A stretch of DNA of 64,000 bases from Eledone cirrhosa (GCA_964016885.1 OZ024746.1:27652001-27716000), one strand, 5' to 3'. Shown: positions 288 to 60,585, counted from the stretch's first letter. Notes: generated by a model not told the origin, from the sequence alone. A program made the numbers and translations.

Positions 288-694
288 GTTAAAGAAAGAA
301 GTGTAACATGGTTGGCTGTACAATACGGGGTTTATTCAAAGTGCTGACAATTGTTTCGTTGATCTGGTACGTCTAGAGTTCGCTAATCACTTGATGCAGC
401 ATCAATCAATCTCCAATACGTTGTTTACAACCAGTAAAGCCCTTATTGTACAGCCAACCATGTTACTCTTATCTCTTGAATTATTATTACTCCAAGTACA
501 ACCTGCATAGAAATTAACGCGAACTCGCTGCATCACTATGGAAAGGTCTTGTTGAGTCAAACTAAGCCGCACGTTAAAACCATCTAGTTAGAGTACTCCG
601 TGTTGTGGATGGTTTTAACGTACGGCTTAGTTTGACTCAACAAGACGTTTTCATAGTGATGCAGCGAGTTCGCGTTAATTTCTATGCATAATTC
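288..694. mobile_element. Double fold-back insertion between (TA)n tracts with a degenerate minus-strand hammerhead; Penelope-like pLTR remnant
   Basis: Inverted repeats 303-334/435-466 and 504-584/608-688. Minus strand 420->341 reads TTGGAGA(degenerate core)-ttgat...atcaac-GAAAC-AATT-GTC-agcac, then AATAAA. Confidence 0.7.
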
Positions 695-849
695 TATATA
701 TATATATATATATATGTGTGTGTGTGTGTAAGTGAGTAGCGTGTGTGTGTTTGTTTGTATGTATGAGTGTTGGTGTGTACGCGCGTATGTATGTGTGTGT
801 GTGTGTGCGTGTGTGTATGTCGTACGTATGAGTGTCAATAAGTGAGTTT

Positions 850-2451
850 TTTTTATGCGCGGGGACATAGAAATAGTCGGGCTGGATACCCGATCGCGCA
901 GTTAAACCACTGGGAGTGAAGAACCCCTAGCCCTTGTCAGGGCATTCTTGTAGGAGAAGGCATCTCAGGAAACTGGGTTAACTCTGACATAAAACCTGCG
1001 GCTCAGTAGTTACCGTTGATGTTGATCTTTTCTTCTTTTCGCACACAGGGAGTGATATGCAGCACATTTTGAATGCATTTTCTGATGCTTGCACTGCCCT
1101 AGGGTTGATTGTCAGTCTTAAGAAAATCGTCGTCATGTACCAACCTGCCCCTTGTAAGCAGTACAGTGAACCAAATATCTATGTGTATGGTAAACGACTT
1201 GGAGTGGTTGATCAGTTTGTCTACCTGGGAAGCACTGTCAATCGATACAGCAACCTTGATAATGAAATCCCACTCAGAATTAGGAAAGTAAGTGAAGCTT
1301 TCGGAAAGCTAGAAAGGCGACTCTGGGGTCGGCGTGGCATATGCAAGAAGACAAAGGTAAAGGTGTATAAGGCATGTGTGCTGTCTTCTCTTCTTTTTGC
1401 CTGCGAGATCTGGATCACATATCGACACCACCTTAAGCAATTGGAGCGTTTCCATCAGATGTGTCTCAGACGGATCCATGGCGTTCACTGGAGGGACCAC
1501 ATCAGTGATGTCGAGATTTTGGATAGATCTCTGTGTGACAGTATAGAAGCTCTTGTGCTTAAGCAAAGACTCCAAGACTCCGTTGGAGTGGTCACCTTTC
1601 CAGGATGAAGGATTCTAGAATACCAAAACAACTCTTTTATGGAGAGTTAGTTAAAGGTAAACAACCTCCACATAAATAAAAAAAGAGGTATAAGGATTCC
1701 TTAAAAGCCTCTTAGAAAGACGCTAACATCTCTGCTGATACATGGGAAAATGTTGCTGCTGATCGTAATAAATGGAGAAAGACTGTATATGAGGGGAAAA
1801 TTGCCTTTGAGGCATCTCGAATCGTATACGAGAAACTAAAGCGGGATGTGAGGAAGGGCATTGCTGTTGCATTTCCAGGCGGCGAAGGTCCTCCCATGGC
1901 GCTGACATGCAGCGTCTGTGCGAGACTCTGACTAAGCGAAGCTGGACTCGAAAGTCATCTTCGCAGTCATAAAGTGAGACCAGTGGTTGACTACCAGGCT
2001 GCTGTTGGAGATGCTACTCATCATGCTTGCCAAGCATGTGGTAGAGAATGTAAATCAGGAGGAGGGCTCAAACGACATGCAAAAGTACACGAACTCCAAC
2101 CACAGCCGACTATTCCCAGTGAAGGTTTTGGTTGCCAACTCTGTGCAAGACATTTTAGATCATTGGCTGGGCTAAAAAGCCACATTCGATCGCAGTGCTG
2201 TTAACTGCTATCGTCTGGGTGTATGGATATGTTTATGTGTGTGCGTGTATATATATATATATATATATATATATATATGTATATTATTATTGTTGTTGTC
2301 GTTATTATTGTTGTTATTATCATTATTATTGTTATTATTATGTTTTGTTTTCTCGTGCAATGGCCATACTCGATAACGAGGGGGCAGCCATCATGTATGT
2401 ATGTATGTATGTATGTATGTATGTATGTATGTATGTATGTATGTATGTATG
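850..2451 (+). mobile_element. Internally deleted RTE-clade LINE: 5'UTR-like segment joined to the C-terminal part of the RT ORF, 3'UTR and (TATG)n tail
   Basis: 930-1040 resembles the 5' segment of the element at 39168-39262. 1057 onward encodes RTE-type motifs (GLIVSLKK, FVYLGS, KVKVYKACVLSSLLFACEIW, LERFHQMCLRRI). Ends in a stem-loop at 2360-2391 plus TATG tail. Confidence 0.9.
1057..2204 (+). pseudogene. Disrupted RTE ORF2 C-terminus (RT thumb and downstream region) ending in three C2H2-like zinc fingers
   Basis: An 8-bp duplication AAGACTCC (1566-1581) shifts the frame. Continuation reads RLRWSGHLSRMKDSRIPKQLFYGEL...WENVAADRNKWR, then CSVC..HLRSH, CQAC..HAKVH and CQLC..HIRSQC. Internal stops present and YADD absent. 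Confidence 0.88.
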
Positions 2452-2828
2452 TAAGATTATTATTATTAAAGTTGTTGTTTTTTTGTTAAGGCCCGGTCGC
2501 TGGTGATGGTGATGGCGGCGGCGGTGGTGGTGGTGGTGGTGGCAGTTGATGTTGTTGTTGGGTTGTGTGTGTGTGTTTTGTTATTTTGATTTTTTTTTTT
2601 TTTTTTAATCGTTTGATGCCGCTGTTGTTGTAAATGTTCATATCAATTCATTCTGAAGCTGTTGCTGTAAACATTAGTGCCGAGATTGTTGTTGTAGATG
2701 TTGGGGTTGAAATCTGGTCCTTTGACTGAGTGATATATATACACACATATACACATATATATATATATATATATATATATATATATATATATATATATAT
2801 ATATATATATATATATATATATATATAT

Positions 2829-3018
2829 ATAGGAACAAGTAAGACCCCGACGGCTGAGCTGAAGCCGTTTCGACGGCTAATTCTGGAATTAGCCGTCGAA
2901 ACGGCTTGAGCTCAGCCGTCGAGGTCTTACTTGTTCCTATTACCCACTCTACTACCCTAAGTATTGAGTACTTTGGTGAGTTATGGTCCACCTGGTTCCT
3001 TACCACATTTTCTTCGTT
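2829..3018 (+). mobile_element. Fold-back element family B (hammerhead 3' half) in (TA)n
   Basis: Palindrome 2829-2940, axis ~2884. GAAAC-GGCT-tgagctc-AGCC-GTC at 2898-2920. 3' end shared with 3940-4158, 13495-13572 and 45541-45741. Confidence 0.85.
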
Positions 3019-58032: not shown

Positions 58033-59440
58033 TAAGCACATATATATATATACATACATATGTATAATATACATATGCCTATATATATATATATATATAT
58101 ATATATATATATATATATTAATATATATATATATATATATATATATGTGTGTATGTATGTGTGTGTATGTATGTGTGGGTGTGTGGGGGGGGGGTTTATT
58201 AAGTACCCAAATGTCATTGACTGTGTAACACTTTCTGTCATTGTTTGATTTTGTATATGTTAAATTGCTAAAGCAAATTTATATAAGGACAAAACAATGA
58301 ACATTAGAGTTGTCAAGTTATTTAAGAGAAATGAAAATTATGACAGAGAGCAATAAATGCAAACAATAACTTTAATATCAAGGAGAGGTGTGCTTTTCAG
58401 AAAACAATGACGACAATTTTTAGGAAAAGAATGGAATAGTGGAGCTAACAGATAATTAATAGAACAAAACGATGCAATGAAGTCATCAGGTTTTATCAGC
58501 TTGTACAGCATTAATAAAATCTCACTACCTGCATAGTTGACATCAATTATATATATATATATATATATATATATATATATATATATATATATATATTTAT
58601 ATTTATATATATATATATATATATATGTATGCATATATATATATGTATATATATATATATATATATGTATATATATATATATGCATATGTATATTATACA
58701 TATGTATATATATGTATATATATATATGTATACATATATATATGTATATATATATATATTATACAATACATTATATATACACACACACACACACATATAT
58801 ATATATATATACATATATATATATATATATATAGAGAGAGAGAGAGAGAACATTTTCATAAATATCAAATAGTGAATGTTTAATGCTGCACTTGATACTT
58901 CATAATAAACAAGAAATACAGATGAATATATCATTATCTTAAATATAATATTAACGGCTGCAACAATAAAGATATTGCTAGTTAAGTTCTATTTTTTTTA
59001 TACAATAGCAATATACAGTGTACCAAATGATGCTATTCAATTATCCTGATATGATTATAAAATTATGGAAAAATTGTTAGAAACTCAATAGAATACATTA
59101 AAATAATATGAACATTGAAATTACACAGGTAGGCCGTCATTAACGGGAATAAATGACGAAGCATTCATCAATTTAAATTAATCAAATGAACTCAGCTGCA
59201 TTTAACAGTTTTGTCAGCAAAATAATTTATGTTGAAAATGTCATTTGAGTTTTACTGCTGCATAGAAATATATATAAATCTATTGTGCTTCAGTGAAATC
59301 GTATAAATGAAAATGTAAATTAATGCACACACACACACACACAAACGCGTGCACACACACAAACTCATACACACACACTCACACACACACATACACACAC
59401 ACACACACACGCGCGCACGCAGACACAAACAAACACACAA

Positions 59441-59761
59441 ACATGGCTTAGTGGTTAGAGCATTAGGCTTGCAATTGAAAGGTTATAACTTCGATTCTCG
59501 GACCGGGTGATGCGTTGTGTCGTTGCGCAAGACACTTTATTTCACGTTGCTCCAGTTTACTCAACTGTAGAAATGAGTTGCAATGTCAGTGGTGCCAAGC
59601 TGTATCGGTCATAGCCTTTCCTTTGGGCATCATCGGTGGCGTGAAGAGAAGGAGACTGGTATGCATGGGCTTCCTGAAACAGCCTTTCCCGGACTTGTGC
59701 CCCGGAGGGAATCTTTCTCGGTGCAAATCACATGGTCATTCGTGACCGAAGGGGGTCTTCG
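59441..59761 (+). mobile_element. Group 2 CORE-type SINE with alternative tail
   Basis: ATGGCTTAGTGGTTAGAG, TTCGATTCTCGGACC, GCAAGACACTTTATTTCACGTTGCTCC. Confidence 0.8.
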
Positions 59762-59807
59762 ATATATATATATATATATATATATATATATATATATATA
59801 TATATAT

Positions 59808-60585
59808 ATGATAAACACAAAACGTGTTTGCATTGTAACAGGCCAAAACGTGTTTGCATTGTAACAGGCCAAAGTAGCCGTCCCGCACAGCCGTTTGTGC
59901 GGGATTAATGAACAGCTCTACAGATAAGCAGCAATATACTATATTATAATTTGAGATTAAACTCTCAGTCGTTTACAATAAATCAGCTCCAAGAAAGGGG
60001 CCTTTCCGAGCAGTTAAATATATATGATAAACGTGTTTGCATTGTAACATACAAAGTTAGCTATCAATGCACAAACGACTGTTATTTCTAGCACCGGGAA
60101 TGCGGGACGGCTACTTTGGCCTGGCTAGACACACGTGTAGTCAGACCTGCAACATTTTTTGATGGTGAGATATACTAATTTTACTGGGTTCCTGTTGATA
60201 AGCACAGAAGATTTGGTTATTTCACTTTTTATTTCAATTCCATTTCGATTCTCTTTATTTTTCAATTCACGTACCATCGTTGCGAAACATATTTAGGTTT
60301 CGAAATTCAAATTCATCTACGGAGCGGGTTTGGATTTTGAAATTTAGATTTGTCCAGGAATCACGGCCTTTGCCAATATAAGCTTGTCTTTATTGACTTA
60401 TATCGAGACAGACAAATTGTATTCACTTTAATTAGTTTATTTCATTGATAGCTAACTTTGTCTGTTACAATGCAAACACGTTTTGTGTTTATTATATATA
60501 TTTAACTGCTCGGAAAGGCCCCTTTCTTGGAGCTGATTTATTGTAAACGACTGAGAGTTTAATCTCAAATTATAATATAGTATAT
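59808..60585. mobile_element. TA-flanked element with ~135-bp inverted repeats and reshuffled terminal pieces; Penelope-like candidate (family J)
   Basis: 59933-60069 inverted versus 60443-60585; 59863-59886 inverted versus 60101-60123; related fragment at ~40280-40380. Confidence 0.7.

What the first reader, a model, noticed from the sequence alone, without database searches (positions are those of the whole stretch)
288..60585. Multiple families of small hammerhead-bearing fold-back elements colonising (TA)n microsatellites
Seen: at least 12 insertions with the layout (TA)n - short inverted arm - axis - long arm - (TA)n, from sequence families with no obvious mutual similarity (288, 2829, 3663, 3940, 11893, 13495, 18716, 19122, 28035, 45541, 48953, 59808). 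Complete hammerhead folds occur at 3725, 13632, 19596, 48852 and 49325, and partial ones in most others. Known: Penelope-like elements (PLEs) carry minimal hammerheads in their pseudo-LTRs, often have an inverted 5' pLTR, and some target simple repeats. Inference: these are a dense, diverse set of non-coding, ribozyme-containing PLE derivatives (retrozyme-like) mobilised in trans. The individual families are probably uncatalogued.
Basis: partly seen in the sequence, partly recalled or inferred. Interest (0 to 1): 0.9.

Follow-up and report, generated by a model that had tools for sequence, protein, structure and literature searches.

The report
Penelope retrotransposon fold-backs carrying hammerhead ribozymes
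These hairpin-shaped inserts in TA repeats are mostly short end-pieces of a known kind of jumping gene (Penelope-like elements, which carry hammerhead ribozyme folds), plus three gene-less families that likely borrow its enzymes; their consistent ends suggest, untested, that each insert is copied from both cut DNA strands at once.

Summary
All 12 fold-backs are present, 11 with (TA)n directly on both sides. All 5 claimed complete hammerheads pass a descriptor scan (7 hits against a mean of 0.6 in shuffles).

The 12 sites belong to 10 families, not 12. Six families (A, B, C, D, F, K) are 5'-truncated, inverted ends of protein-coding Penelope-like elements (PLEs) with Hydra-clade motifs; one 830-codon RT + GIY-YIG frame is intact. 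Family G belongs to a Neptune/Nematis-type PLE. Only H/I, J and L are ORF-less ~0.5-kb head-to-tail units that fit 'retrozyme-like, mobilised in trans'. Six tail patterns give 42,581 exact matches genome-wide.

Hydra-clade PLEs, (TA)n targeting, their hammerheads and one octopus family are published.

What is new here is the junction statistics. In 146 of 147 classifiable inverted pairs the two ends lie at different fixed start sites. In five families the 5' ends stop at a sharp family-specific boundary. This points to twin priming and run-off at the transcription start (inferred). Cleavage and expression were not tested.

The parts
289..690 (.). Family D (Hydra-type): inverted arm 289-434 with the 3' half of the hammerhead on the minus strand, sense arm end 435-482, partial tail from 483, then a second fold-back of the tail (504-688)
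   Evidence: full element with ORF in L335
2830..3017 (+). Family A (Hydra-type): inverted arm 2830-2883, axis, sense arm 2886-2939 (3' half of hammerhead only), 80-nt tail to 3017
   Evidence: EN upstream in L034/L037/L053
3663..3864 (+). Family B (Hydra-type): perfect palindrome about 3726/3727, complete hammerhead (core 3731, predicted cleavage after 3769), 80-nt tail
   Evidence: ORF in L380/L331
3939..4156 (+). Family A copy: inverted arm 3939-3988, 40-nt junction, sense arm 4029-4078, tail to 4156
10907..11120 (+). Extra copy, family related to G: hammerhead with U3-A8 core and one stem II mismatch, no inverted arm
   Evidence: read by eye; not passed by the scan
11894..12437 (.). Family F (Hydra-type): tailed segment on minus (12233 to 11894, 137-nt tail), tail-less segment on plus (12235-12437); the axis lies in the hammerhead core; stem II is about 130 nt long
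   Evidence: intact 830-codon frame L334:4433-6922
13496..13571 (-). Tail of family A joined to the family C fold-back (composite)
13572..13766 (+). Family C (Hydra-type): inverted arm 13572-13617, junction, sense arm 13628-13703 with complete hammerhead (core 13636, predicted cleavage after 13665), 66-nt tail
18716..19079 (.). Family G (Neptune/Nematis-type): longer segment on minus (18934 to 18716), shorter on plus (18938-19079); hammerhead-like fold with an altered second core box
   Evidence: the fold was read by eye
19127..19738 (+). Family H/I, ORF-less unit of about 550-580 nt: inverted tail 19127-19219, axis, tail and spacer 19220-19589, complete hammerhead (core 19600, predicted cleavage after 19670), arm to 19738
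19813..19868 (+). Family C tail fragment
28036..28587 (.). Family J, ORF-less unit of about 487 nt: minus segment 28182 to 28036 with the 3' half of the hammerhead; plus segment 28183-28587 ending in the 5' half (core 28552)
39638..39756 (-). Family K fragment (arm end and tail)
40282..40378 (.). Family L fragment with a short fold-back
45542..45740 (-). Family A copy in minus orientation: tail 45542-45621, arm, junction 45678-45684, inverted arm to 45740
48764..48900 (-). Family B copy without inverted arm; complete hammerhead (core 48895)
48957..49519 (+). Family K (Hydra-type): inverted arm 48957-49025, upstream pLTR 49026-49324, complete hammerhead (core 49332, predicted cleavage after 49380), arm to 49429, 90-nt tail
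   Evidence: ORF follows the tail of a related subfamily in L099 and L282
59810..60580 (.). Family L, ORF-less unit of about 500-550 nt with inverted partial copies on the left; degenerate hammerhead with U3-A8 core
   Evidence: the hammerhead was read by eye

Best explanation
The fold-backs are insertions of Penelope-like retrotransposons in (TA)n repeats: seven families are truncated, inverted ends of RT + GIY-YIG coding elements, three are ORF-less tandem units that are likely mobilised by such elements, and each inverted insert is likely made by priming from both nicked target strands. Shown: the element order is ORF - 3' UTR - hammerhead - start site 1 - tail (66-174 nt) - start site 2 - 5' UTR - next ORF; the outer ends lie at these two TA-dinucleotide sites and abut (TA)n; an inverted pair has one end at each site; 5' ends stop at a family-specific boundary. 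Inferred: (1) the endonuclease nicks both strands of a (TA)n run; (2) RT starts internally on the RNA, at site 1 from one nick and at site 2 from the other; (3) on an ordinary mRNA these sites lie only 60-210 nt behind the transcription start inside the upstream pseudo-LTR, so both cDNAs usually run off the RNA 5' end in or just before the hammerhead, and joining them gives the short fold-back; (4) tandem or circular RNA gives the long and multimeric copies; (5) the ORF-less units keep the hammerhead and both start sites and use a helper protein. Hammerhead cleavage is predicted and is not needed for steps 1-3. My odds: PLE identity 0.95, trans-mobilised status of H/I, J and L 0.8, twin priming 0.7, run-off at the transcription start 0.55.
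For: ORF link: 28 of 30 loci found with a family C endonuclease peptide carry the C hammerhead arm downstream on the same strand; 3 of 30 position-ordered family A loci run unbroken into a GIY-YIG C-terminus; the tail is followed directly by 5' UTR and ORF in C (L100, L094), D (L273, L335), F (L223, L239, L249) and K (L099, L282); B arm and ORF are continuous via L331 and L380. Hydra-clade motifs of Craig 2021 are present. Target: (TA)n at the tail end in 109 of 120 loci of A, B, F and K against 23% of random windows; both flanks (TA)n in 130 of 163 inverted pairs. Two-site rule: of 163 pairs, 146 are site1/site2, 1 site2/site2, 0 site1/site1 and 16 unclassified; 66 of 66 classifiable among 74 pairs away from anchored sites. 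Against copying back of one cDNA: in 36 of 146 pairs the tail-less segment is more than 25 nt longer, in 8 the tailed one, and in 15 the tailed segment stops inside the tail. 5' boundary: 130 of 240 segment ends lie within 15 nt downstream of the family boundary and 5 lie in the 40 nt upstream; each boundary is at or within a few nt of a pyrimidine-C-A motif, with a TATA-like box about 30 nt upstream in B. ORF-less units: periods 548-583 (H/I), 486-488 (J) and 547 (L subfamily), longest frame 27-47 codons. The H/I hammerhead stems show changes on both sides at 3 of 14 pairs, 98.6% of cells paired. Published support: in vitro a PLE cuts and extends both strands and starts RT at two internal sites that bound the tail (PMC11167929).
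Against: No RNA data: transcription starts, cleavage and circles are untested. The boundaries were chosen from the same data that were then counted, and pyrimidine-C-A occurs 6-14 times per 300 nt. The test for a cap-derived extra G was inconclusive (5 of 9 at A -60, 4 of 11 at B -60, 1 of 6 at F -213, 1 of 5 at K -187). Family C gave no boundary in 15 unbiased segments, and D and K ends are spread widely. 102 of 146 pairs have near-equal arms, which hairpin self-priming also explains. Junction overlaps are modest (mode 0-2 nt) and many junctions have unmatched letters. No helper element was found for H/I, J or L among 16 coding loci. No empty sites were examined, so a pre-existing (TA)n target is inferred. 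Clade assignment rests on motifs, not a tree. In one search, pairs with two-sided change were reached by 112 of 500 shuffles, and the 10 rows are related.
Confidence: 0.75

Rival explanations
1. Same elements, but the fold-back arises by self-priming (hairpin copy-back) of one nucleic acid strand, and the 5' ends mark RT stalling at the hammerhead structure, not the RNA 5' end.
For: Palindromic junctions were read as self-priming in PMC3846280 (passages). 102 of 146 pairs have arms within 25 nt of each other. The boundaries in B, D and F lie within about 15 nt of the hammerhead 5' edge.
Against: 44 of 146 pairs have unequal arms in both directions, and 15 tailed segments never reach the region the partner covers. 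The boundary lies inside loop II in A and about 90 nt upstream of the core in K.
Confidence: 0.2
2. One reading: all families are small non-coding retrozyme-like elements whose fold-back form is the replicating unit, mobilised in trans.
For: Holds in part for H/I, J and L, which are ORF-less tandem units with hammerheads. Short copies outnumber long ones (137 short against 14 long family A segments). Some junctions recur (four identical A junction classes at -64/-64), so secondary spread of some fold-backs is not excluded.
Against: Seven families continue into RT and EN frames. Junctions differ among copies. Most A, D and F short copies lack part of the hammerhead.
Confidence: 0.07
3. Miniature inverted-repeat or fold-back DNA transposons that duplicate TA.
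For: Inverted ends flanked by TA.
Against: The arms are asymmetric (tail on one side), vary in length from copy to copy, hold hammerheads and continue into reverse transcriptase frames.
Confidence: 0.01
4. Assembly or library fold-back artefacts.
For: Some palindromes are perfect (3663-3790, 12028-12440).
Against: The outer ends fall at the same two element-specific sites in 146 of 147 pairs across many contigs. The arms of several copies differ by substitutions.
Confidence: 0.01

Closest known systems
Hydra-clade Penelope-like elements (Craig et al. 2021, PMC8557442; includes Hydra-1_Obim from Octopus bimaculoides)
   Same: C-terminal GIY-YIG, RW[KR], DKT, CxCX5C linker, no CCHH, CxxC and CxH motifs; (TA)n insertion; type I hammerhead near the 3' end, often with a U.U position at the base of stem II; inverted 5'-truncated copies.
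   Different: At least six coding families here with 1,000 to over 23,000 exact tail matches for the five counted, where the paper found few families outside cnidarians; tails of 66-174 nt against 30-40; 3' UTRs up to about 2 kb; hammerheads with long stem II inserts (D, F) or a U3-A8 core (A).
Poseidon of Anolis carolinensis, in vitro (Frangieh et al. 2024, PMC11167929)
   Same: Tail equals the stretch between two internal RT start sites at the pLTR-ORF junction; AT-rich target; both strands extended.
   Different: Here both start sites are TA dinucleotides matching the target, whereas that paper reports no homology to the cut DNA; the passages I read do not report one end at each site or a 5' boundary.
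Non-LTR retrozymes (Cervera and de la Pena 2020, PMC7229834; Li et al. 2026, bioRxiv 10.64898/2026.07.22.740005)
   Same: H/I, J and L are ORF-less head-to-tail repeats with one type I hammerhead per unit, as monomers to trimers.
   Different: Units of about 490-580 nt are larger than the usual 150-400; they show PLE-type inverted copies, two fixed ends and (TA)n flanks; circular RNA and cleavage are untested.
Minimal hammerheads of metazoan PLEs (Cervera and de la Pena 2014, PMC4209133)
   Same: Short palindromic stem III, extra nucleotide at the base of stem II, U3-A8 variant, opposite-strand pairs 100-700 bp apart ascribed to truncated PLEs.
   Different: Family B has a longer stem III; activity is untested here.
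Penelope of Adineta vaga (Arkhipova et al. 2013, PMC3846280)
   Same: Inverted pLTRs with palindromic junctions, optional tail, TATA and Inr-like motifs in the pLTR.
   Different: That paper proposes self-priming; the junction counts here favour two separate RNA-templated syntheses.

Membership tests
EN+ Penelope-like element (A, B, C, D, F, G, K) | Single ORF with RT and C-terminal GIY-YIG endonuclease joined to the same ends | tested here: met
   Intact 830-codon frame for F; broken or partial frames for B, C, D, K and G; EN C-terminus only for A. Pfam gave no significant family for the F frame.
EN+ Penelope-like element (A, B, C, D, F, G, K) | Pseudo-LTRs in partial tandem or inverted arrangement with an optional tail at one end | tested here: met
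   L100, L334, L335, L331, L371; 146 of 147 pairs have the tail on one side (G not included in that count)
Hydra clade (A, B, C, D, F, K) | RW[KR] and DKT motifs in the N-terminal region | tested here: met
   Both in C, D, K and F; DKT only seen for B; region not recovered for A
Hydra clade (A, B, C, D, F, K) | CxCX5C linker, no CCHH motif, CxxC and CxH around the conserved E and N | tested here: met
   All six families; absence of CCHH read by eye from the translations
Hydra clade (A, B, C, D, F, K) | Insertion into (TA)n | tested here: met
   109 of 120 tail ends (A, B, F, K) against 23% background; empty sites not examined
Hydra clade (A, B, C, D, F, K) | Hammerhead in the pLTR | tested here: met
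   B, C, K in the window; A, D, F complete in longer copies
Hydra clade (A, B, C, D, F, K) | RT phylogeny inside the Hydra clade | not tested
   No labelled reference proteins were available in the script machine
Neptune/Nematis clade (G) | CX2-5CxxC linker plus CCHH-type GIY-YIG | tested here: met
   L376:5141-5992 and L377; RT in L371. Neptune and Nematis were not told apart.
Non-LTR retrozyme (H/I, J, L) | ORF-less head-to-tail repeats with a type I hammerhead in each unit | tested here: met
   H/I trimers L338-L340, J in L256-L259; L hammerhead degenerate and read by eye
Non-LTR retrozyme (H/I, J, L) | Self-cleavage and circular RNA | not testable with these tools
   Needs in vitro assays and RNA
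Non-LTR retrozyme (A, B, C, D, F, G, K short copies) | ORF-less unit repeated head to tail | tested here: not met
   They continue into coding PLEs and are inverted, not tandem, short units
Minimal type I hammerhead | Core boxes, stems I-III, cleavage triplet, compensatory changes | tested here: met
   (covariation tested for H/I only, 10 related rows)
MITE or fold-back DNA transposon | Fixed symmetric terminal inverted repeats, no RT link | tested here: not met

The most novel reading that the evidence does not exclude
This genome holds a natural record, tens of thousands of copies deep, of how Penelope-like elements integrate: one complex primes both target strands at two fixed RNA sites and runs off the transcription start, which mass-produces ribozyme fold-backs; and the ORF-less 0.5-kb families are retrozymes caught with the full PLE integration signature, direct structural evidence that PLE proteins mobilise animal retrozymes.
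Probability: 0.45. Interest if true: 0.72.

Novelty: new variant of a known kind. Interest (0 to 1): 0.5.

Why it matters
How PLEs make their tandem and inverted insertions is stated as open in Craig 2021, and the steps after RT initiation as unvalidated in Frangieh 2024. These families give position-exact predictions: two start sites, one per end, and a transcription start 60-210 nt upstream of site 1. They also provide an intact protein (family F) for in vitro tests. The ORF-less families bear on the proposal that animal retrozymes are PLE derivatives. For annotation, tens of thousands of short fold-backs are likely to be mislabelled as MITEs, SINEs or microRNA hairpins (Rfam's listed best matches here were nearly all sub-threshold microRNA models). 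The class of element, its target and its ribozyme are already published, which caps the interest.

Tried and rejected
Rfam at E<=1: no hammerhead family among the 150 listed of 283 matches; the listed matches were below their gathering scores. The direct-repeat finder was swamped by microsatellites. Pfam on EN fragments and on the F frame: nothing above cut-off. The protein search gave 324 relatives, 120 listed, almost all unnamed; the named ones were hypothetical or uncharacterised proteins, so it was of no use for clade assignment. I first called the coding families Neptune from memory; the motifs in Craig 2021 corrected this to Hydra. One search used a wrong strand slice and sampled a neighbouring repeat family; its loci served only as extra sequence. 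One search failed on a wrong orientation and was rerun. One search used a misregistered structure; one search is the valid count. The cap-G test was inconclusive. RNA: no RNA holder listed; three runs of unrecorded kind from one sample, kept as contigs, hold the H/I family but show no joints and say nothing on expression. No helper was found for the ORF-less units among 16 coding loci. No PLE coding remnant in the window itself. Earlier findings of this scan: none. Copy numbers for C, G, J and L were not counted by pattern; only candidate numbers are available.

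
Full report
SETTING. The window is G000:C6:27652001-27716000 in a 3.0-Gb, 1,796-contig genome, 33% GC, with 165 runs of five or more TA units.

OBSERVATION. All 12 listed sites hold inverted arms. (TA)n abuts both ends in 11; at 45541 another repeat intervenes. A minimal type I hammerhead descriptor found 7 motifs in the window, 6 of them at the five claimed places (one is the mirror image in the 3663 palindrome). 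The controls gave a mean of 0.6 in 30 shuffles and 0 in the reversed window. A stricter first scan found 1. The sites fall into 10 families: A (2829, 3940, 45541, left part of 13495), B (3663, 48764), C (13572), D (288 with 504), F (11893), G (18716), H/I (19122 with 19596), J (28035), K (48953, 39638) and L (59808, 40282).

COPY NUMBER. Exact tail patterns matched 23,746 (A), 6,306 (F), 5,630 (B), 4,265 (H/I), 1,492 (K) and 1,142 (D) places, with 0 for each reversed control. These are lower bounds for the dispersed families; H/I counts include tandem units. C, J and G gave 2,707, 2,456 and 1,879 first-look candidates, of which 40 each were scored.

SEVEN FAMILIES ARE ENDS OF CODING ELEMENTS. 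Locus L006 put a GIY-YIG-like frame directly upstream of the family C end. Of 30 loci found with a peptide from it, 28 carry the C arm downstream on the same strand, 1 (the source locus) has the tail with the arm deleted, and 1 is interrupted. In L100 and L094 the order is 3' UTR - hammerhead - arm - tail - 5' UTR - ORF, so the tail is the start of the next unit. Among the first 30 family A matches by position, 3 run unbroken over about 1.2 kb into an endonuclease C-terminus. F has an uninterrupted 830-codon frame right after its tail (L334, first Met at codon 18). D is complete but frameshifted in L335. B is tied to a 617-codon frame through L331 and L380, and K through a related subfamily in L099 and L282. 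The window itself holds no PLE coding remnant.

CLADE. Craig et al. 2021 (passages) define the Hydra clade by RWK, DKT, a CxCX5C linker, loss of CCHH, CxxC and CxH around E and N, canonical hammerheads and (TA)n insertion. The linker, CxxC and CxH are in A, B, C, D, F and K. RW[KR] with DKT is in C, D, F and K; B showed DKT only, and the region was not recovered for A. Their supplement (part 2 of 59 and a term search) lists Hydra-1_Obim from Octopus bimaculoides and hammerheads with the same U.U position at stem II. G differs: its frames carry CX4CxxC and a CCHH-type GIY-YIG (L376, L371), hence Neptune or Nematis, and its hammerhead-like fold has an altered second core box (by eye). No tree was built.

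THREE FAMILIES ARE ORF-LESS. H/I occurs as head-to-tail dimers and trimers with periods of 548-583 nt, J with 486-488, and an L subfamily with 547; the longest frame is 27-47 codons. They have the same two fixed ends at TA, inverted partial copies and (TA)n flanks. In 10 H/I rows 98.6% of hammerhead cells pair and 3 of 14 pairs change on both sides. None of 500 shuffles reached the paired fraction or the covariation score, but 112 reached the count of two-sided pairs, and the rows are related. No helper was found among 16 coding loci.

TARGET. The tail end abuts (TA)n in 29, 25, 30 and 25 of 30 loci for A, B, K and F, and in 16 of 30 for H/I, where most of the rest continue in tandem; background is 23%. 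No empty site was seen.

HOW THE FOLD-BACK FORMS. Natural long copies served as references; tails measure 80 (A, B), 66 (C), 92-93 (K), 137 (F) and 174 nt (D). Of 163 inverted pairs in the fetched loci (junction gap within 40 nt), 146 have one end at site 1 and the other at site 2, 1 has both at site 2, none has both at site 1, and 16 have one end elsewhere. Many loci were found through the tail, so I recounted away from anchored sites: 66 of 66 classifiable among 74 pairs. In 102 of the 146 pairs the arms end within 25 nt of each other; in 36 the tail-less segment is longer and in 8 the tailed one; in 15 the tailed segment stops inside the tail. One cDNA copied back on itself cannot give a longer tail-less partner or a partner with no overlap. 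Two RNA-templated syntheses from the two target nicks can, and Frangieh et al. 2024 (parts 1-2 of 4) showed both-strand extension and two internal start sites bounding the tail in vitro. Arkhipova et al. 2013 (passages) read such palindromes as self-priming, which stays possible for the equal-armed majority.

WHY THE AXIS SITS AT THE HAMMERHEAD. The 5' ends of short segments pile up behind a boundary at -60/-64 (A), -60 (B), -174 (D), -213 (F) and -187 (K) from site 1. Of 240 ends, 130 lie within 15 nt downstream of it and 5 in the 40 nt upstream. Each boundary is at or near a pyrimidine-C-A motif; B has a TATA-like box about 30 nt upstream. The boundary is inside hammerhead loop II in A, which is why those copies show only half a ribozyme, and about 90 nt upstream of the core in K. 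A transcription start therefore fits better than stalling at structure. Limits: the boundaries were picked from these data; the motif occurs 6-14 times per 300 nt; C showed no boundary in 15 unbiased segments; D and K are diffuse; the cap-G test was inconclusive.

HAMMERHEAD ROLE. Predicted only. Monomer folds are not unusually stable. Cervera and de la Pena 2014 (parts 1-2 of 4) report low activity and dimer dependence for such motifs, the U3-A8 variant, and opposite-strand pairs from truncated PLEs. Frangieh 2024 found cleavage protein-assisted and dispensable for insertion in vitro.

LITERATURE. Eight searches were run. Besides the papers above I read Li et al. 2026 (parts 1-2 of 5), Cervera and de la Pena 2020 (passages) and the 2026 O. 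vulgaris repeat annotation (passages: 31 recently active Penelope-like families; 'hammerhead' and 'Hydra' do not occur in its main text). In these searches I found no paper describing the one-end-per-site rule, the 5' boundary, or ORF-less Hydra-type derivatives in cephalopods; the 'twin priming' search listed two papers on other subjects (listing only). Repbase, Dfam, that paper's library, the bioRxiv supplements and subscription journals were not seen and may hold these families.

VERDICT. Real and mostly a known kind: Hydra-type PLE insertions in (TA)n, with three retrozyme-like non-autonomous families. The added value lies in the expansion, the long tails and the junction rules that make the integration mechanism testable. 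Interest 0.5; new variant of a known kind.

Noticed in passing
window 42490-42710: A further fold-back with arms of about 110 nt and a 9-nt loop, not flanked by (TA)n and not matching the ten families.
   Followed up: no
window 56812-57071 and 57493-57752; 57749-57876: Inverted arms (260 nt at 97%; about 35 nt) that flank TA-rich runs, so the microsatellite lies inside the hairpin, the reverse of the layout studied.
   Followed up: no
window 48627-48692 and 49620-49685: A 66-nt direct repeat brackets the cluster of B and K insertions; possibly an older element split or partly duplicated there.
   Followed up: no
window 13496-13573: A family A tail is joined to a family C arm with no (TA)n between; deletion between neighbours or a template switch between families.
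   Followed up: partly
window 988-2200: 3' part of a LINE reverse transcriptase frame with frameshifts (RTE-like by recalled motifs).
   Followed up: no
L093:8447-9361 and L373:1185-3635: Other PLE-like frames not tied to window families: a CCHH-type endonuclease in L093 and a divergent RT with an asparagine-rich insert in L373.
   Followed up: no
fetched loci, tally: At least eight more hammerhead stem III classes than the window families account for, so further PLE families are present in this genome.
   Followed up: no
L091:4098: The sense segment of a near-full family C copy begins at start site 2 while the inverted partner carries the tail, as if one cDNA stopped where the other was primed.
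   Followed up: partly
L028, L346, L016, L029: Pile-ups of several PLE families in successive (TA)n runs; each insertion leaves targets for the next.
   Followed up: no
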